A DNA stretch of 64,000 nucleotides from the sequence record OQ446694.1; one strand, given 5' to 3'. Both the position numbers and the translations under genes were made by a program. Under the pieces are notes generated by a model. The model saw nothing but the letters and a program-made list of their open reading frames with translations. It made no database searches and had not been told where the DNA came from. This document shows positions 4,897 through 47,451 of the stretch, in pieces. Positions within the stretch are counted from its first letter, which is position 1; every line of letters begins with the position of its first letter. This DNA comes from Escherichia phage Killian.

Positions 4897-6701
4897 TGAA
4901 ACAAAATATTAATATCGGTAATGTTGTTGATGATGGTACCGGTGACTACCTGCGTAAAGGTGGTATAAAAATAAATGAAAACTTTGATGAACTTTATTAT
5001 GAACTTGGTGATGGAGATGTTCCATATTCAGCCGGTGCCTGGAAAACTTATAATGCTTCATCCGGTCAAACATTAAAAGCTAAGTGGGGAAAATCATACG
5101 CTATTAATACCTCTTCTGGAAGAGTAACTTTACAACTTCCTAAAGGAACTGTTAATGATTATAATAAAGTAATTAGAGCTAGGGATGTATTTGCAACATG
5201 GAACATTAATCCAGTTACTTTAGTAGCTGCTTCTGGGGATACAATTAAAGGGTCGTCATCGTCAGTTGAAATTAATATTCAATTTAGTGATTTAGAGCTC
5301 GTTTATTGCGCTCCAGGACGTTGGGAGTATGTCAAAAACAAACAAATTGATAAAATTATTAGTTCAGATATTAGTAATGTAGCTCGCAAAGAATTTTTAG
5401 TAGAAGTTCAAGGACAAACTGACTTTTTAGATGTTTTCCATGGAACTAGTTATAATGTCAATAACATCAGAGTAAAACACCGCGGTAACGAATTATATTA
5501 CGGCGATGTATTTAGTGAAAACAGTGACTTTGGCTCTCCGGGGGAAAATGAAGGAGAATTAATTCCTCTTGATGGATTTAATATTAGGTTAAGACAGCCT
5601 TGTAATATTGGCGACACTGTTCAAATTGAAACGTTTATGGATGGTGTATCACAATGGAGAAGTTCATATACAAGACGCCAAATAAAAGTACTAGATTCAA
5701 AACTAACATCAAAGACTTCTTTAGAAGGAAGCATTTATGTTACTGATTTATCGGCGATGAAATCAATTCCATTCTCTGCGTTTGGATTAATTCCTGGCGA
5801 ACCCATTAATCCTAATTCTCTCGAGGTTCGTTTTAATGGAATTTTACAGCAACAGGCTGGAACAGCTGGGTATCCTCTGTTTTTGTGCGAAGGCGCTAAT
5901 TCAGATACGCAAGAAGGATGTATATCTCTTGGTGGCGAATGGAAAGAATCAAACACAGATTATTCTATAGAATATGAAGATGGAAAACCTACCAGTCTTT
6001 TATTTGATAGAAAATTTGAATCAGGCGATATAATCGTTATAACGTGGTTCAATAATGATTTAGGAACTCTTTTAGAAAAAGATGACATCATTGAATTGAC
6101 TGATGACCGTTATGTTAGCAAAGGATCGTCTACCGAAGTTACTGGCGATGTAGCTTTAACAGATTTTGATAAAATTGGTTGGCCAAATGTTGAAAAAGTT
6201 GATTCTTATACTAGAACGTATAATTCAATATCATCTATTTTCGATAGCATTTATCCTGTAGGTTCAATTTATGAAAATGCTATAAACCCAAATAATCCGG
6301 TGACTTATATGGGGTTTGGTTCATGGAAATTATTTGGTAAAGGACAAGTTTTAGTAGGATGGAATGATGATGTTACGGATCCAAACTTTGCTTTAAACAA
6401 TAATGATTTAGATTCTAGTGGAAATCCTTCACACACTGCCGGTGGAACAGTTGGAACAACATCAGTAACGCTTGAAAACGCAAATCTTCCTGCGACTAAA
6501 ACTGATGAAAGAGTTTTAATTGAAGATGAAAATGGATCAGTTATTATTGGAGGTTGTCAATATGACCCAGATGAAACTGGTCCTATATATACAAAATATC
6601 GTGAAGACTATGCAACAACAAACTCTTCACATACTCCTCCTACTAATATTAGTAATATTCAACCGTCTATTACTGTATACCGTTGGATAAGGATTGCATA
6701 A
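4896..6701 (+). CDS. 10: baseplate wedge protein gp10
   Basis: 601 aa (T4 gp10 ~602 aa); start overlaps gene 9 stop. Confidence 0.93.
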
Positions 6702-41599: not shown

Positions 41600-43696
41600 T
41601 TATCCTTGAATGAACTTGTAAGGCATGTTTGCAATATCTATGCAAGATGCAATAATTCCAAGAGATGATTCTACTTTTTGTTTAACATTTGATGAAACAA
41701 ATGATGCAAAGTCAACTCTGTCTTCTATTTCAATATCACCTGCCATTGCAACTACTTCACCAGTTTCCATTAGACGGTCACCGTCATAAATTACTGATTC
41801 AGTGAGTTCTTCCGTAGTCATAACTTCAGCTTGAATGAGTTTTGTATTATTAGATGTTGTTCCGTCATTATTAGAAGCATCAGTTATTTTATTAACTTTG
41901 ACCATCAATCCGCGTGGTAGAATAACTTCAGCTTCTGTTGCTATTCCGAGGCTTCCTGGATATACAACATTAACTTTATGAGCTCCATCAATTGCCCATC
42001 CTATTTGAACTTTAACGTATTCGGGATTTTCTTTATACGCTCTTATTTCGTTTGAATTAATAGTTATTCCTTCTTCATTTTTATCAACTGTCAATTCATT
42101 ACGAGCTTCTGGTTCTAAAAGACCAATACCAGCATGTGTAATTCCAAAACGTCCAAAAATGATAGGAGTTAAAGAAGTAGATACAAAATTTCTGAAATAG
42201 AACACTTTATTTTTAACTAGTGCTTCGTATATAGGAGCAGTCATGCTTTGAGCACGATAAACTGTAATGCCTTCTGGTATACGGTCACCATTTTCAAAGG
42301 CTGAATCTAAATTATTTATCGCAGATTCAATTTCTTTTTCACTCATTACCTCATATCGTTCTGGATTGTAGCGACCTAAAAGAAGATTATTGATGTCAGT
42401 ATATCCTGAACCACAATACTCTCTAATGCCGCGCTTTTGTGATGGAGTATATTTAGAACCATCACGAGCAATAGTAATATCAATCATTGGACCTGCACCA
42501 ATTCCAGAAAAACTATAAATCATTCTTTTGAGGAATTTAGTTTTTGCTGCGTTCCAGGAATTTTTAGTTATTTCTTCCCAGACTTCATCTGGCTGTCCTT
42601 TACGGGTTTTATTATGTTTATCAAGCCAATTATCTTTATATTCTTCAAATAATTGATTAACAGCTGCTGCGTATTTCTCTAAACATTTTATTGAAGTAGT
42701 TGGTTCATTTTTAATCGCATTAAGAATTACATCTTTAATTTTTTCAGAAACTTCATTAACCTCACTTTTTGAAAAGAATTTATAGTCATAATGAAGTTCA
42801 TCTGCAGTTCCTTCAGCAATAATTTTTGCTGCCTTAGTTTTAGAAGCTAATGAATTAATTCCAAGCTTCATTTCTTCCGCTTCGGGAATTAAAGGAGCGG
42901 TAGCAGGTTTATTGAAATTAGCTGCGGTAGATTCATACTTCTGGAATAATTCACTTTCAAATCTAGAAGATTCTAATGACTGACTTTGCGCAATTGCTCT
43001 ACGGGAAATTTTAACTTTAACGATTACAGCTTGGTCAGAACGTTTATCATTTTCTTGTGCAATAGATGCTGCAATTGCCTCATTTTTAGTTACTTGAGCT
43101 CCAGTATCTTTATTGATATAAACATCACCGACTTTCGATTCAACTTTAGTAAAGAGCTCGGTACTAATTTCTGGAACTCCTGGAATGTCTTCTAATGATA
43201 CATTTTTGCGATGTATAAGAATATATGCGTACTTTTTATCGTAATCCCAGAGTTCCTTAAGAAGGACGTATCTGCCACCTGAACGACTGCGGATAAGTCT
43301 ATCAGCAATAAGTTGAATTTGTCGAGCTTGACCAGCAGTTTTAGACTTAAGAATACGGAGCATGCAGGCATCAATTTTATACTGACGCATCGTTTGCATT
43401 GCAACTGTAAAAACTGAATTGATATAATTAATTGGGCTTGGACCGAGACCTTTTAATTTAGCAATTGAACCTTTAGCAGTTAATGTAAAAGGAACAATAT
43501 GCATCATTTTATCGCCCATCTTTAAATCGCGATTAGTATCACCTCCAGATGTATAGGTACATAAACGAAAGCCTGGTTGTTCAATTGCGTCATCAACGTG
43601 AACTGAAAAAATTTGCGGTATTTTCTTCTTTGGATTTAAGTTTGTAATCGGAAGAGTAGTATCTTCGTCAAATAATTCTGTAATGAGTTCCATCAT
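41600..43696 (-). CDS. alt: Alt-family ADP-ribosyltransferase, copy 2
   Basis: 698 aa; same N-terminus MELITELFD and ART motifs; late promoter immediately upstream. Confidence 0.8.
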   Translation of the reverse strand: MMELITELFDEDTTLPITNLNPKKKIPQIFSVHVDDAIEQPGFRLCTYTSGGDTNRDLKMGDKMMHIVPFTLTAKGSIAKLKGLGPSPINYINSVFTVAMQTMRQYKIDACMLRILKSKTAGQARQIQLIADRLIRSRSGGRYVLLKELWDYDKKYAYILIHRKNVSLEDIPGVPEISTELFTKVESKVGDVYINKDTGAQVTKNEAIAASIAQENDKRSDQAVIVKVKISRRAIAQSQSLESSRFESELFQKYESTAANFNKPATAPLIPEAEEMKLGINSLASKTKAAKIIAEGTADELHYDYKFFSKSEVNEVSEKIKDVILNAIKNEPTTSIKCLEKYAAAVNQLFEEYKDNWLDKHNKTRKGQPDEVWEEITKNSWNAAKTKFLKRMIYSFSGIGAGPMIDITIARDGSKYTPSQKRGIREYCGSGYTDINNLLLGRYNPERYEVMSEKEIESAINNLDSAFENGDRIPEGITVYRAQSMTAPIYEALVKNKVFYFRNFVSTSLTPIIFGRFGITHAGIGLLEPEARNELTVDKNEEGITINSNEIRAYKENPEYVKVQIGWAIDGAHKVNVVYPGSLGIATEAEVILPRGLMVKVNKITDASNNDGTTSNNTKLIQAEVMTTEELTESVIYDGDRLMETGEVVAMAGDIEIEDRVDFASFVSSNVKQKVESSLGIIASCIDIANMPYKFIQG

Positions 43697-43730: not shown

Positions 43731-43746
43731 AAGGCCCGAAGGCCTT
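43731..43746 (-). terminator. hairpin between the 62-aa ORF and alt
   Basis: aggcc-cgaa-ggcct tetraloop hairpin. Confidence 0.45.
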
Positions 43747-43934
43747 TAATAATCTATTGGTAAGAGAGTACGATATATTTCAAACTTTGGGCCTTTTTCA
43801 TAGGCATCAAATGTTTCTGTGAATTTATTATAAGCATATGCATCTATAAATTCAATCATAATTTGTGATACAGAAGTAGAAACATCTCCACCTTCTTTTT
43901 GAGCCACGACAATTGTTTCTAAGTAAGCTTTCAT
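43746..43934 (-). CDS. hypothetical small protein
   Basis: 62-aa ORF; start overlaps ligase stop. Confidence 0.55.
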   Translation of the reverse strand: MKAYLETIVVAQKEGGDVSTSVSQIMIEFIDAYAYNKFTETFDAYEKGPKFEIYRTLLPIDY

Positions 43935-45391
43935 AGACCAGTTACCTCATGAAAATCACCAAATACATCCTCGAATGTATTAGCTTTAGTTTTATCTTCA
44001 CGCAAACGAATCGCAATCGGAAGAAATAATTTAACGTAATCAGTGCGGCCATCAGATTTTAACCAACCATTACATTCGCACTCTAGAATTTTTCCAATAT
44101 AATAATTTTGGTTTTCCATAATGCGAGTACGGTCAAGTTCATGCGATTTTACACCGGCTTTATCTTTTAAGCCTGAACCAGCATTTACTTTAATTTTTCC
44201 ACATTCTGATTCAAGAATAAATCCACCCGCTTTAGTAGGGTCTTTACGGTGAGGATAAATTCCTACAATTTTTAAATCAACATCAATTACTTCTTTAAAT
44301 TTATAGAGATTTTTTGAACGAGCATTTTCCCATAATCCATCGATATTTTTGAGAATAATACCTTCAAGACCTTGGTCAATATACTTTTTATAAATTACCT
44401 TAGCTTCATCTAGGTTATTTACTATCTGGTTTTCAATTAAAATTACTTTATCATATCCTGATGTCATTTGTTCTAGTTTAGAAAAACGTACATCATATTT
44501 TAAACGAAATGCTGGAAGACCGTATATTTCTACCAACGGGACATAATCCCAGACCTGAAACTTCATGCATTTGGCTTCTTTTTCTGAAATAGTTCCCTTT
44601 AAAGATTTATTGGCGATTCCATTAGAAGCAGTACGCGATTCAGCTACTTCGGAAAACTCTTTAGCTTTACTGATTTCAGGAGCATCAAAAAGAAAATCTA
44701 GGCCTTCTGGCTCCTTTTCAACTTGCTCATGGTATACCAATTCGCCATCAATTAACACGCCTTCTGGATGAATCTGGCGAGCTTCAGCAGTCATTTTGAT
44801 TAACTCTTCCTTAAGAAGATCTAATCCTAGATATTCATTACCAGCTCGTGATAAAAGACGAACATCATCTAATTCATCGCCTCGGACTTCAGCAAAACAC
44901 CGAGCTCCATCTGCTTTTAACTGTGCAAAAGCTGGAAATTTGATATTCTTACTAATGCCTTTTTCATCATAAGAACTTGCCAGCATTTGAGGTTGTTCAG
45001 GAATTAAACCTGGCCAAACTTTATTTGCGATAGATACTGAAGCACCGCATTCAAGATCTCGCATCATAACTCGACGCAAAACTTCAACATCATCCTTTTT
45101 ACCATCAGTGATATATCCAGTTAATTCCTCAATTGCAGCATTTCCAGTCAATTTCCGAGTAGCTAACGTGAATTCAATGAAGTCAAGCATATCGGTAATA
45201 GTCAGCATTCCAAAACTCTGGGTAGCAATACCAGGTTTAGGCCATTTCTTGATATAATACTGTAACCCACGAGAATAAGTCAGACGATATACTCGTTTAA
45301 GCAATTCATTATCTTTATTCTTTTCAAGAATTGCTTGCTTCTGCTTAGTTGATCCAATAGATGCTATTTCATTCAGAATTTTAAGAATCAT
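43931..45391 (-). CDS. 30: ATP-dependent DNA ligase
   Basis: 486 aa; near-identical to recalled T4 DNA ligase (MILKILNEIASIGSTKQKQAIL...; KADG adenylation lysine motif). Confidence 0.97.
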   Translation of the reverse strand: MILKILNEIASIGSTKQKQAILEKNKDNELLKRVYRLTYSRGLQYYIKKWPKPGIATQSFGMLTITDMLDFIEFTLATRKLTGNAAIEELTGYITDGKKDDVEVLRRVMMRDLECGASVSIANKVWPGLIPEQPQMLASSYDEKGISKNIKFPAFAQLKADGARCFAEVRGDELDDVRLLSRAGNEYLGLDLLKEELIKMTAEARQIHPEGVLIDGELVYHEQVEKEPEGLDFLFDAPEISKAKEFSEVAESRTASNGIANKSLKGTISEKEAKCMKFQVWDYVPLVEIYGLPAFRLKYDVRFSKLEQMTSGYDKVILIENQIVNNLDEAKVIYKKYIDQGLEGIILKNIDGLWENARSKNLYKFKEVIDVDLKIVGIYPHRKDPTKAGGFILESECGKIKVNAGSGLKDKAGVKSHELDRTRIMENQNYYIGKILECECNGWLKSDGRTDYVKLFLPIAIRLREDKTKANTFEDVFGDFHEVTGL

Positions 45392-45657
45392 TGCTCATCC
45401 TTCAAGGTTTGGTTTACAGCTCTATTATAAATCAATTCATCATTAAGCTCAGGCAAAGACCTATGATATGTAGTTCTAACTTTATTTCCTTGCATCCAGT
45501 GCTTAACGTAAATGAAACCTTGCTCTACACATTTTTTAAAAATTCGTTCGTCTTTTTGAGCTCGGAATTTTGGATTACATCTAAAAAATTGATTTACGTG
45601 ACCGTAATCACGTGTAGTATTACCTTCATTTTCATAAATAGTGTGAACGACAAACAT
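45388..45657 (-). CDS. hypothetical protein (T4 30.1-like)
   Basis: 89-aa ORF in 30.1 position. Confidence 0.6.
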   Translation of the reverse strand: MFVVHTIYENEGNTTRDYGHVNQFFRCNPKFRAQKDERIFKKCVEQGFIYVKHWMQGNKVRTTYHRSLPELNDELIYNRAVNQTLKDEQ

Positions 45658-46496
45658 TAGAATGCTCCTTGGAAAATATTATCACCGCTAGTAGGTCTAT
45701 TATACAAATACTCTATGCCACCAGGTTTAATATAGTTCCATGTCTGAAATGGATGTGTCTGATATGGATGATATAGATGATTATAAGGATTAAATCCAGG
45801 CGTTCTCCAGGTAGTGTTCCAAGGAAAAGAATCGTTTTTAACCATCTTCTCAATTAAATCTTTTACAGCTTTTTCACTATCAAAACTTTCTTTATTTTCC
45901 TTCGGCGAAAAAAGCTTATTTTCTACATCATTCCATGTATAAACTCGCTGAGCAGTTTTTGGAATATTGTCACGCTCTCCTCGAGCCATCCAATAAACAG
46001 GAACATTTAATATTTCACTCGCATGATCGCAGTGATGAGCGAGATCGTCAATATAACAAATTACGTTATATTTCTCTTTTGCCTTTTTAAACAACTCTTC
46101 TTTTGAAGAATCATGACCACACATCATTACTTCTGAGAAGGCACCAGGAAAAAGAGCATTCAAATTAAATTGACGATTCAACAGAGCGTCAATAGAATCA
46201 CCCAATGCTGTGACAGCTACAAAATTATAATCTTCTTTTAATTTGTTAATTACACACAGTGCATCTTTATATGGAGACAAGTAACGAATAAAATCTGATC
46301 GATTATATTTTTCAATTAGCTTGACACCGAGTTCTTCATCACAATTAAAGAGTTTACCTGGAGAAATAAATTTCTCATCTTGGATCATTTTTAAAATATG
46401 TTCTAACGGAAGATTATATTTCTGAGCAAAATAAGGAAGACCTGATTGCCAGCTTAAACATACTCCATCAATATCAGTTAAAATAGTAGGCTTCAT
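45657..46496 (-). CDS. HAD-superfamily hydrolase-like protein (T4 30.2-like)
   Basis: 279 aa; N-terminal ILTDIDGV resembles HAD motif I (DxDG). Confidence 0.65.
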   Translation of the reverse strand: MKPTILTDIDGVCLSWQSGLPYFAQKYNLPLEHILKMIQDEKFISPGKLFNCDEELGVKLIEKYNRSDFIRYLSPYKDALCVINKLKEDYNFVAVTALGDSIDALLNRQFNLNALFPGAFSEVMMCGHDSSKEELFKKAKEKYNVICYIDDLAHHCDHASEILNVPVYWMARGERDNIPKTAQRVYTWNDVENKLFSPKENKESFDSEKAVKDLIEKMVKNDSFPWNTTWRTPGFNPYNHLYHPYQTHPFQTWNYIKPGGIEYLYNRPTSGDNIFQGAF

Positions 46497-46957
46497 AGAG
46501 AGTCTCTTAATAGGTTTAACACATCAATAAATTCAGCTTCGGTTAGTATTGTATCATCTTTTGTTAGACCACTAGCCATGCTGTGCTTCAAAACTTTTCC
46601 TTTCGAGGCTTGTAATGCATCACGAAAGCCCCTGTTTTGGAACGCTGCTTCAAAATATGCATTTGTGTATAATTCTTTCCACGCTGGAGAGTATCTTGAA
46701 AACTGAACTCCAAGCCAGAAGAGGGTCCCACGGTCCTGAGCTCTAGCATAAGCTCGTCCAGCTTGTTGGGCGGCAAGCCCGGATAACCCAAATATACGAT
46801 GTTGCTGTTCAACATTTTTCACCTTGCATCCTTGGAGGAATCCTTCGAGACCTCCAAATTGGATACCATCCATAACAAAAGGCCATTGGGCGAAATTACT
46901 TAATGCACATGATGGCCATCTAAAATTGCTTCTAATCTCTAACTCAGACATTTTCAA
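46493..46957 (-). CDS. NADAR/YbiA-family protein (T4 30.3-like)
   Basis: 154 aa; LSNFAQWPF..DG..F...EGFLQGCK resembles the NADAR (DUF1768) core. Confidence 0.65.
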   Translation of the reverse strand: MKMSELEIRSNFRWPSCALSNFAQWPFVMDGIQFGGLEGFLQGCKVKNVEQQHRIFGLSGLAAQQAGRAYARAQDRGTLFWLGVQFSRYSPAWKELYTNAYFEAAFQNRGFRDALQASKGKVLKHSMASGLTKDDTILTEAEFIDVLNLLRDSL

Positions 46958-47159
46958 TACTTATAATTTCAACATCAGCCCAATGACCGTAACTTGGTAA
47001 ACGGTCTTCAATAGATAATCCGCCATCATATTTAAGCATTTTAATTGTCATAATATATGGCTCTAAATGGTCTTCAGTGAGCGGAGAGACATCAGTCACA
47101 CGATAAGTAACTTCGACCATTTCCGTGCCCAGTAATTTCTTGATTAATTTCTTAAACAT
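46944..47159 (-). CDS. hypothetical protein (T4 30.4-like)
   Basis: 71-aa ORF. Confidence 0.55.
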   Translation of the reverse strand: MFKKLIKKLLGTEMVEVTYRVTDVSPLTEDHLEPYIMTIKMLKYDGGLSIEDRLPSYGHWADVEIISIENV

Positions 47160-47163
47160 TTTA

Positions 47164-47451
47164 TTAGAACCTCATCTGAAAACCGTGCGATTTAACACTA
47201 CCGCCGCCAATATCAGAAATATTAATTTCACGCGCAATTGAAGGGTCAATGTCAATTTCACGATTGAGTTTAGTGATAGCTAAAGTATCGCGGCCATTTA
47301 CAGTACGGAACTCTAAAGGGCAGACTACATTAACATAGTTTTTAATCGATTCACTGGTAGGTTGCAAATGAGCAGGAAGGTCTTTAGGCGCCTTAGAGAA
47401 AACCACTTCACAGAAATTTTTGCGGGTATCAAAATAAGTAGTCATAAACAT
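47164..47451 (-). CDS. hypothetical protein (T4 30.5-like)
   Basis: 95-aa ORF with GAGG RBS. Confidence 0.6.
   Translation of the reverse strand: MFMTTYFDTRKNFCEVVFSKAPKDLPAHLQPTSESIKNYVNVVCPLEFRTVNGRDTLAITKLNREIDIDPSIAREINISDIGGGSVKSHGFQMRF

What the first reader, a model, noticed from the sequence alone, without database searches (positions are those of the whole stretch)
45657..46957. NADAR-family gene next to a HAD-like hydrolase gene and DNA ligase
The 154-aa ORF (46493-46957) has the NADAR/YbiA-like core (LSNFAQWPF..DG..F...EGFLQGCK). NADAR domains are known to reverse guanine ADP-ribosylation of DNA made by DarT-type toxins. The overlapping upstream gene (45657-46496) has an N-terminal HAD motif I (ILTDIDGV), and both lie directly upstream of ligase. 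This could be a phage module for removing ADP-ribose-type nucleic acid modifications, that is, a candidate counter-defence function. The genes may be T4 30.2/30.3 homologs whose function is uncharacterised.
Basis: partly seen in the sequence, partly recalled or inferred. Interest (0 to 1): 0.55.

Follow-up and report, generated by a model that had tools for sequence, protein, structure and literature searches.

The report
T4 AdfN anti-DarT gene plus HAD phosphatase
The 152-aa gene is the T4-type phage enzyme AdfN, already shown by experiment to strip ADP-ribose off phage DNA and defeat the bacterial DarTG1 defence. The neighbouring gene is an uncharacterised phosphatase that published transposon data show is not needed for that job.

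Summary
The window is a Tequatrovirus (T4-like) genome. The genes are real, on the minus strand, in the order 30.4, 30.3, 30.2, 30.1, ligase.

- **gp30.3** (46493-46951, 152 aa from its ATG) is 96% identical to T4 gp30.3/AdfN. It is full length and keeps E36, K43 and the phage-type H123. Its model matches only the three solved NADAR structures.
- **Prior work.** T4 AdfN is a published guanine-ADP-ribosyl-DNA glycohydrolase that counters DarTG1 (PMC11825919, PMC11125620).
- **gp30.2** (45657-46496) has all four HAD motifs and a confident HAD fold. Its cap domain is homologous to 5'(3')-deoxyribonucleotidases. It is uncharacterised.
- **The module idea is not supported.** In a T4 transposon screen under DarTG1, 30.3 insertions are lost (log2FC -7.25) while 30.2 insertions are neutral (-0.12). 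Across phage loci, 30.2 stays with ligase (71/77) rather than with the NADAR gene (20/80 NADAR loci).

Interest is low: the finding is essentially already explained.

The parts
46493..46951 (-). Gene 30.3 = adfN.
   Evidence: It matches Pfam PF08010 with E = 9.7e-68 and is 96% identical to T4 gp30.3 with no gaps. E36, K43 and H123 are conserved. The AlphaFold2 model has pLDDT 94.6. Its only meaningful PDB matches are YbiA 2b3w, G. lovleyi NADAR 8bat and P. nicotianae NADAR 8bau. The family profile hits YbiA with E = 0.0026.
45657..46496 (-). Gene 30.2. It encodes a HAD-superfamily phosphatase (279 aa) with a C1 cap related to 5'(3')-deoxyribonucleotidases and a disordered aromatic/Pro/Asn-rich C-terminal tail (about residues 200-279).
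45388..45657 (-). Gene 30.1 (DUF3045, 89 aa). It lies between 30.2 and ligase and its function is unknown.
   Evidence: It matches Pfam PF11243 with E = 7.5e-63. It is present in only some phage lineages between the HAD gene and ligase.
43931..45391 (-). Gene 30, ATP-dependent DNA ligase.
   Evidence: It matches Pfam PF01068 with E = 3.9e-32 and corresponds to the T4 annotation. A ligase gene lies downstream of a 30.2 homologue on the same strand in 71 of 77 viral loci.
46944..47159 (-). Gene 30.4 (71 aa). It lies immediately upstream of adfN and overlaps its start by 8 nt.
   Evidence: It is 54% identical to T4 30.4. In T4 it is the only other gene significantly depleted under DarTG1 (log2FC -1.79, adjusted p = 0.014).
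46588..46815 (-). Internal ORF 30.3' (75 aa), in another frame inside adfN. T4 annotates it as hypothetical.
   Evidence: The ORF is listed and the T4 annotation is. It was not evaluated further.

Best explanation
The locus is the 30.4-30.3-30.2-30.1-30 early-gene cluster of a T4-like phage.

**gp30.3 is AdfN.** When the host toxin DarT1 ADP-ribosylates guanine N2 in phage DNA and blocks replication, AdfN hydrolyses the ribosyl-guanine N-glycosidic bond. It uses the conserved Glu36 and Lys43, with His123 at the third catalytic position that is typical of phage NADARs. The reaction releases ADP-ribose and restores intact DNA. The activity and the protection are shown for the 96%-identical T4 protein and are inferred here by orthology.

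**gp30.2 is a separate enzyme.** It is a Mg2+-dependent HAD phosphomonoesterase. Asp8 is the predicted nucleophile and Asp10 the general acid/base, with Thr96, Lys132 and Asp150/151 completing the active site. Its helical cap is homologous to that of the cytosolic and mitochondrial 5'(3')-deoxyribonucleotidases. Its most likely substrate is therefore a (deoxy)nucleoside monophosphate; this is inference.

**It is not required for AdfN's anti-DarTG1 function.** Its stable genomic partner is the ligase gene, not the NADAR gene.

My confidence is about 0.95 for AdfN identity, about 0.9 for gp30.2 being a HAD phosphatase, about 0.5 for gp30.2 being a nucleotidase, and about 0.8 for gp30.2 not being part of the AdfN mechanism.
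For: **AdfN identity**
- It is 96% identical to T4 gp30.3 and full length, so it lacks the RB69-type truncation.
- E36, K43 and H123 are conserved across the family.
- The model has pLDDT 94.6 and its top three PDB matches are the three NADAR structures, with nothing else below E = 1.
- The family profile hits YbiA, and some relatives match both PF08010 and PF08719.
- Published experiments report that adfN is needed for T4 resistance to DarTG1, that ectopic adfN rescues RB69, that the E36A and K43A mutants and the C-terminal truncation lose activity, and that the protein de-ADP-ribosylates DNA in vitro (PMC11825919). In vitro guanine-ADPr hydrolysis is also reported in PMC11125620.

**gp30.2 as a HAD enzyme**
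- All four HAD motifs are present.
- The cap is homologous to cdN, and some homologues give weak NT5C or HAD Pfam hits.

**Independence of the two genes**
- In the T4 HIDEN-SEQ sheet 'Control vs DarTG1' only 2 genes are significant.
- The log2 fold changes are -7.25 for 30.3, -1.79 for 30.4, -0.12 for 30.2 (p = 0.61, 71 TA sites) and -0.01 for 30.1.
- Ligase lies downstream in 71 of 77 HAD-centred loci, while a NADAR gene is within 6 kb in only 37 of 77.
- Only 20 of 80 NADAR-centred loci carry the HAD gene.
Against: - The AdfN function of this particular allele rests on orthology; there are 6 substitutions, none at catalytic positions.
- The gp30.2 substrate is unknown. The window protein itself gives no Pfam or NCBIfam hit.
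- Structure searches rank generic HAD-IA enzymes as high as the deoxyribonucleotidases.
- 30.2 mutants showed no phenotype in LB, M9 or DarTG1 conditions, so nothing constrains its role.
- A pooled transposon fitness assay could miss a small or redundant contribution of 30.2 to ADP-ribose handling.
- The 4-nt ATGA overlap shows the two genes are co-expressed in T-even phages.
Confidence: 0.85

Rival explanations
1. gp30.3 and gp30.2 would act together to remove ADP-ribose-type nucleic-acid modifications. For example, the HAD enzyme might process a phosphoribosyl remnant or the released ADP-ribose or AMP, and be needed for effective counter-defence.
For: - The two genes overlap by 4 nt (ATGA) and are co-transcribed.
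- They are adjacent in Tevenvirinae and in Acinetobacter T4-like phages.
- AdfN works fully only in T-even infections, so the authors suggest a further T-even protein is needed.
- Couplings of ADPr-glycohydrolases with phosphatases, including a HAD 5'-nucleotidase, have been proposed bioinformatically in bacteria (PMC9503650).
Against: - T4 insertions in 30.2 are neutral under DarTG1 (log2FC -0.12, p = 0.61) while 30.3 insertions are lost.
- 60 of 80 NADAR-centred viral loci lack the HAD gene within 6 kb.
- 40 of 77 HAD-centred loci lack a NADAR gene within 6 kb.
- In Aeromonas and Vibrio T4-like phages the HAD gene sits by ligase without a NADAR neighbour.
- NADAR hydrolysis leaves an intact base, so no phosphatase step is chemically required.
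Confidence: 0.08
2. gp30.2 would be a DNA-end 3'-phosphatase that prepares nicks for the downstream DNA ligase, in a heal-and-seal pair analogous to Pnkp with RNA ligase.
For: - Ligase lies downstream on the same strand in 71 of 77 loci, within 700 nt in 67 of them, across several Straboviridae lineages.
Against: - gp30.2 has a C1 helical cap between motifs I and II. In HAD enzymes such caps generally close over small substrates, whereas the polynucleotide phosphatases are capless; this is established HAD knowledge, not tested here.
- The cap is specifically homologous to that of the nucleotidase cdN.
- The synteny may simply reflect the conserved T4 replication-gene order.
- T4 already has the Pnkp 3'-phosphatase.
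Confidence: 0.1
3. gp30.3 would act mainly on soluble substrates rather than on DNA. Candidates are ADP-ribose-derived immune signals, or riboflavin intermediates as for E. coli YbiA.
For: - YbiA is the closest solved structure.
Against: Direct experiments on T4 gp30.3 show DNA de-ADP-ribosylation in vitro and a DarTG1-specific requirement in vivo. A secondary soluble substrate is not excluded.
Confidence: 0.05

Closest known systems
T4 gp30.3 / AdfN (anti-DarT factor NADAR; Johannesman et al. 2025, PMC11825919)
   Same: The window protein is the orthologue. It is 96% identical over all 152 residues and sits in the same flanking gene order. It keeps E36, K43 and H123 and has an intact C-terminal helix.
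   Different: It has six substitutions, none at catalytic positions. The upstream neighbour 30.4 is only 54% identical to T4 30.4, and T4 30.5 has no counterpart.
DarG1-type NADAR antitoxins and E. coli YbiA (PDB 8bat, 8bau, 2b3w)
   Same: They share the fold (Foldseek TM 0.68 to YbiA) and the Glu/Lys catalytic pair. Guanine-ADPr hydrolysis has been shown in vitro for all of them.
   Different: - It belongs to the phage subfamily PF08010, with His instead of Glu or Asp at the third catalytic position.
- It is not encoded next to a DarT gene.
- It does not neutralise DarT1 in uninfected cells.
- The window protein gives no direct PF08719 hit.
Cytosolic and mitochondrial 5'(3')-deoxyribonucleotidases (cdN/NT5C, mdN/NT5M; Pfam PF06941), for gp30.2
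   Same: - Both have a HAD core with the DxDGV motif I.
- The cap is homologous (hhalign 93.9%, E = 1.6e-7, 32% identity over 88 columns).
- The aromatic residues W16, F43 and Y64 align with cdN residues that, as I recall, line the nucleoside pocket.
   Different: - The window protein gets no Pfam NT5C hit.
- It has an extra disordered tail of about 80 aa.
- As far as these searches reached, the family is restricted to T4-like phages.
- Its substrate has not been tested.
Phage T5 Dmp (deoxynucleoside-5'-monophosphatase)
   Same: It is a precedent for a phage-encoded early enzyme with the DxDG motif I that dephosphorylates dNMPs (annotation).
   Different: There is no specific relationship. hhalign probability is 1.5% and only motif I aligns.

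Membership tests
NADAR superfamily (gp30.3) | An alpha+beta NADAR fold. | tested here: met
   The model has pLDDT 94.6. Its three best PDB matches are YbiA, G. lovleyi NADAR and P. nicotianae NADAR. The next match has E = 4.
NADAR superfamily (gp30.3) | A conserved catalytic Glu and Lys (E88/K95 in E. coli C7 NADAR; E36/K43 in T4 AdfN). | tested here: met
   E36 is invariant and K43 is at least 90% conserved in the family alignments. Both are identical to T4.
NADAR superfamily (gp30.3) | Sequence-profile relationship to YbiA / PF08719. | tested here: met
   The window protein alone hits only PF08010. The family profile hits YbiA with E = 0.0026 across the SNF...EGFLQ...K motif. Several relatives carry both PF08010 and PF08719.
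Phage NADAR subfamily (gp30.3 / PF08010) | A histidine at the third catalytic position, where YbiA-type proteins have Glu and BC4488-type proteins have Asp. | tested here: met
   H123 is invariant. The definition of the subfamily comes from PMC11125620 and PMC11543638.
AdfN (functional anti-DarTG1 factor) | A full-length protein with the C-terminal helix, which the inactive RB69 allele lacks over its last 15 residues. | tested here: met
   The alignment to T4 covers all 152 aa without gaps. A helix is modelled at residues 138-151.
AdfN (functional anti-DarTG1 factor) | Removes guanine-linked ADP-ribose from DNA and protects the phage from DarTG1. | not testable with these tools
   This has been shown for the 96%-identical T4 protein.
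HAD superfamily (gp30.2) | Four catalytic motifs: I DxDx[TV], II [ST], III K, IV DD. | tested here: met
   The motifs are D8-I-D10-G-V, T96, K132 and D150-D151. All are invariant or at least 90% conserved in 43 homologues.
HAD superfamily (gp30.2) | A Rossmann-like HAD core fold with a cap inserted after motif I (C1 type). | tested here: met
5'(3')-deoxyribonucleotidase family (NT5C, PF06941) (gp30.2) | A match to the family model at Pfam's threshold. | tested here: not met
   The window protein gives no Pfam hit even at E <= 10. Only 9 of 43 homologues give weak NT5C hits, the best with E = 1.2e-4.
5'(3')-deoxyribonucleotidase family (NT5C, PF06941) (gp30.2) | A homologous cap domain with the aromatic nucleoside pocket. 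| tested here: met
   hhalign against cdN residues 5-104 gives 93.9% probability and E = 1.6e-7. The PDB profile search gives cdN 2jao as best hit at E = 0.041; the only other match (an amidase, E = 1.2) is not meaningful. The role of the aligned aromatic residues rests on my memory of the cdN and mdN structures.
5'(3')-deoxyribonucleotidase family (NT5C, PF06941) (gp30.2) | dNMP phosphatase activity. | not testable with these tools
   I found no published assay for gp30.2 in the held library.
Two-gene ADP-ribose-removal module (NADAR + HAD) | Both genes are required for the counter-defence phenotype. | tested here: not met
   In published T4 transposon data under DarTG1, 30.3 has log2FC -7.25 and 30.2 has -0.12 (p = 0.61).
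Two-gene ADP-ribose-removal module (NADAR + HAD) | Conserved co-localisation beyond shared ancestry. | tested here: not met
   The HAD gene is present in 20 of 80 NADAR-centred loci. A NADAR gene is present in 37 of 77 HAD-centred loci, whereas ligase is present in 71 of 77.

The most novel reading that the evidence does not exclude
The cluster may still hide an unrecognised helper function.

- **30.4 as cofactor.** The small gene 30.4 is the only other T4 gene significantly depleted under DarTG1. It could be the T-even-specific cofactor that explains why AdfN fails outside T-even infections.
- **gp30.2 as clean-up enzyme.** The NT5C-like phosphatase gp30.2 could dispose of AMP or ADP-ribose-derived products, or of a nucleotide immune signal, in a defence context not yet assayed.
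Probability: 0.12. Interest if true: 0.5.

Novelty: already known. Interest (0 to 1): 0.15.

Why it matters
The central claim, a phage NADAR that reverses DarT-type DNA ADP-ribosylation, is correct. It has already been published and verified genetically and biochemically for the T4 orthologue, so this window adds only another allele.

What remains open is modest:
- the substrate and role of gp30.2, a widely conserved, phage-restricted, NT5C-like HAD phosphatase that almost always sits just upstream of DNA ligase in T4-like phages;
- why AdfN works only during T-even infection.

The data gathered here argue that gp30.2 is not the answer to the second question.

Tried and rejected
- **Direct database hits.** Single-sequence searches of both proteins against PDB sequences gave nothing useful. 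gp30.2 gave no hit in Pfam. Neither protein gave a hit in NCBIfam. PHROGs lists both families as 'unknown function'.
- **T5 Dmp as a relative of gp30.2.** Rejected; hhalign probability is 1.5%.
- **Promoter and terminator scan of 43.5-49.5 kb.** Counts equal the shuffled expectation, so the scan is not informative.
- **Bacterial homologues of gp30.2.** There is one hit, on a 178-kb contig that is probably a T4-like phage in a Flagellimonas assembly. No bacterial context was obtained.
- **Literature on gp30.2.** No paper in the held library characterises it.
- **Residue-level confirmation of the cdN/mdN nucleoside pocket.** I could not find it in the library, so that point rests on memory.
- **gp30.2 as the 'additional T-even protein' needed by AdfN.** Rejected on the transposon data.
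- **Unused tool.** The representative-protein HMMER search was not used because it returns no annotation or context.

Full report
**1. What is there**

The window is a Tequatrovirus (T4-like) genome. The 1.9-kb region around the finding is 99.3% identical to Escherichia phage UGKSEcP2, and it matches 688 phage records. All genes in the region are on the minus strand. Matched to the T4 annotation, they are:
- alt (41600-43696)
- alt.1 (43746-43934)
- gene 30, DNA ligase (43931-45391)
- 30.1, DUF3045 (45388-45657)
- 30.2 (45657-46496)
- 30.3 (46493-46951 from its ATG)
- 30.4 (46944-47159)
- 30.6, 30.7 and 30.8

The reading frames overlap in a chain: 8 nt for 30.4/30.3, ATGA for 30.3/30.2, TAATG for 30.2/30.1, and 4 nt for 30.1/30. 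The cluster therefore looks co-transcribed and translationally coupled.

Its ORF begins at a TTG two codons upstream of the ATG used in T4.

**2. gp30.3 is AdfN, a NADAR enzyme**

- The protein matches Pfam Phage_30_3 with E = 9.7e-68.
- It is 96% identical to T4 gp30.3 over all 152 residues, with no gaps.
- In alignments of diverse relatives, E36, G37, Q40, H123 and the T-x-LT-x-x-E segment (T134, L136, T137, E140) are invariant. K43 and I135 are at least 90% conserved.
- A profile of the family hits E. coli YbiA in the PDB with E = 0.0026, aligning the SNF...DG...E-x-F-x-Q...K core.
- A profile search of the large protein collection finds at least 5,955 relatives. Some carry both PF08010 and the NADAR model PF08719.
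- The AlphaFold2 model is confident (pLDDT 94.6, pTM 0.89).
- Foldseek against the PDB returns exactly the three solved NADAR proteins at the top: YbiA 2b3w (E = 6.5e-5, TM 0.68), G. lovleyi NADAR 8bat and P. nicotianae NADAR 8bau. Nothing else scores below E = 4.

**3. This is already known**

Johannesman et al. (Nat Commun 2025, PMC11825919) mapped DarTG1 resistance of T-even phages to gene 30.3 and renamed it adfN. They reported the following:
- Ectopic adfN rescues RB69.
- RB69's own allele is frameshifted and lacks the last 15 residues.
- E36A, K43A and the truncation impair function.
- Purified protein removes ADP-ribose from DarT1-modified DNA.

Guanine-specific ADP-ribosyl hydrolysis by gp30.3 in vitro was also reported in PMC11125620. 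The NADAR mechanism and the His variant of phage NADARs are described in PMC11543638.

Both groups found that gp30.3 does not rescue DarT1 toxicity in uninfected E. coli.

The window allele has the intact C-terminal helix (residues 138-151 in the model) and all catalytic residues. By orthology it should be an active AdfN.

**4. gp30.2 is a HAD phosphatase with a deoxyribonucleotidase-like cap**

- The window protein gives no hit in Pfam or NCBIfam. Its PHROG family (phrog_420) has no assigned function.
- An alignment of 43 homologues shows the four HAD motifs as invariant or nearly so: D8-x-D10-G-V, T96, K132 and D150-D151.
- The presence of the second Asp marks a phosphoryl-transfer HAD rather than a dehalogenase. 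This is established HAD knowledge, not tested here.
- The model is confident for residues 1-200 and disordered from about residue 225 onward.
- Foldseek gives 108 PDB matches at E <= 1e-3; all of the 50 listed are HAD-superfamily entries, including cdN, mdN and the S. epidermidis deoxyribonucleotidase-like protein 3bwv.
- Sequence evidence does point to one subfamily. The family profile's best hit in the PDB is mouse cdN (2jao, E = 0.041). The only other match, an amidase at E = 1.2, is not meaningful.
- hhalign of the family against cdN residues 5-104 (motif I, cap, motif II) gives 93.9% probability, E = 1.6e-7 and 32% identity. T5 Dmp, another phage HAD nucleotidase, gives 1.5%.
- The conserved W16, F43 and Y64 align with cdN aromatic residues. 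From memory of the cdN and mdN structures, these stack on the nucleoside. I could not confirm this in the library.
- 9 of 43 homologues give weak NT5C hits and 12 of 43 give weak generic HAD hits.

The family is found in 1,439 phage records with a host distribution like that of gp30.3. A scan of 185,579 bacterial and archaeal genomes gave one hit, on a 178-kb contig that is probably a phage.

**5. Is it a NADAR + HAD module?**

Two lines of evidence say no.

*Context.*
- In 77 IMG/VR loci centred on a gp30.2 homologue, DNA ligase lies downstream on the same strand in 71, and within 700 nt in 67.
- A gp30.3-type NADAR gene is within 6 kb in only 37 of those loci, and directly adjacent in 21.
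- Conversely, only 20 of 80 NADAR-centred loci carry the HAD gene within 6 kb.
- In an Aeromonas T4-like phage and a Vibrio T4-like phage the HAD gene sits by ligase with no NADAR neighbour.
- In a Rhizobium phage and a Brevundimonas phage the NADAR gene sits next to a helicase or an RNA ligase, with no HAD gene annotated nearby.

*Genetics.* The T4 HIDEN-SEQ transposon screen (bioRxiv 10.1101/2025.11.20.689424, Extended Data Table 6) gives these results:

| Gene | Condition | log2FC | Significance |
|---|---|---|---|
| 30.3 | DarTG1 | -7.25 | adjusted p = 0 |
| 30.4 | DarTG1 | -1.79 | adjusted p = 0.014 |
| 30.2 | DarTG1 | -0.12 | p = 0.61 (71 TA sites) |
| 30.1 | DarTG1 | -0.01 | not significant |
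| 30.2 | M9 versus LB | -0.10 | not significant |

- Exactly two genes are significant under DarTG1.
- 30.2 is also dispensable on K-12, where 72 of 72 TA sites were hit.

gp30.2 is therefore not required for AdfN's function. It is not the 'additional T-even protein' that Johannesman et al. suspected.

**6. Mechanism**

*Shown for the T4 orthologue and inferred here.* DarT1 ADP-ribosylates guanine N2 in phage DNA. AdfN hydrolyses the ribose-guanine bond using Glu36, Lys43 and His123, which frees ADP-ribose and restores the template.

*Inferred.* gp30.2 forms an aspartyl-phosphate on Asp8 and hydrolyses a phosphomonoester, most likely a (deoxy)nucleoside monophosphate held under the cdN-like cap. 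Its physiological role is unknown. Its tight linkage to ligase may be functional or may be inherited synteny.

**7. Verdict**

- The NADAR and counter-defence interpretation is right but already published.
- The HAD call is right.
- The joint-module idea is not supported.
- The novelty class is 'already known', with a minor open question about gp30.2 and a small lead on 30.4.

Noticed in passing
window 46944-47159 (-), gene 30.4: In the published T4 transposon screen, 30.4 is the only gene besides adfN that is significantly depleted under DarTG1 (log2FC -1.79, adjusted p = 0.014). It overlaps the adfN start by 8 nt, and adfN has no obvious Shine-Dalgarno sequence, so a polar or translational-coupling effect is the simplest reading. 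A real accessory role is not excluded. Homologues of 30.4 occur only directly upstream of the NADAR gene in close T-even relatives (14 of 80 loci).
   Followed up: partly
window 46944-47451 (-): The window's 30.4 is only 54% identical to T4 30.4, although the last 19 residues are identical. T4 gene 30.5 has no counterpart: 30.4 is followed directly by 30.6. This is a small mosaic difference within an otherwise 96-97% identical cluster.
   Followed up: partly
window 45657-45900 (-), C-terminal ~80 residues of gp30.2: The tail is disordered (pLDDT below 50), rich in Trp, Tyr, Pro and Asn, and varies in length between phages or is absent. A [YW]-x-x-[NRK]-x-P-[TRK] motif recurs near the C-terminus in divergent homologues and could be a docking motif.
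   Followed up: no
window 46588-46815 (-), ORF 30.3': A 75-aa ORF in another frame inside adfN is retained, as annotated in T4 ('internal translation'). I did not assess whether it is expressed or conserved beyond what the adfN frame itself would constrain.
   Followed up: no
L085 (NZ_JBHSCL010000010.1, Flagellimonas marina assembly), 6001-6636: The only 'bacterial' hit for gp30.2 lies on a 178-kb contig. The size and the 48% identity resemble the T4-like phages of enterobacteria, so it is probably a phage contig within the assembly.
   Followed up: no
L005 (Brevundimonas phage Papperlapapp) 4001-6018; L004 (Rhizobium phage RL38J1) 4001-6089: Outside the Straboviridae, gp30.3-type NADAR genes sit next to an RNA ligase or an ATP-dependent helicase rather than a HAD gene or a DNA ligase.
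   Followed up: no
L002 (Acinetobacter phage Meroveus) 423-4636: In this Acinetobacter T4-like phage, a putative ADP-ribose pyrophosphatase (nudE) and pseT lie about 3 kb upstream of the 30.3-30.2-ligase trio, and 30.1 is absent.
   Followed up: no
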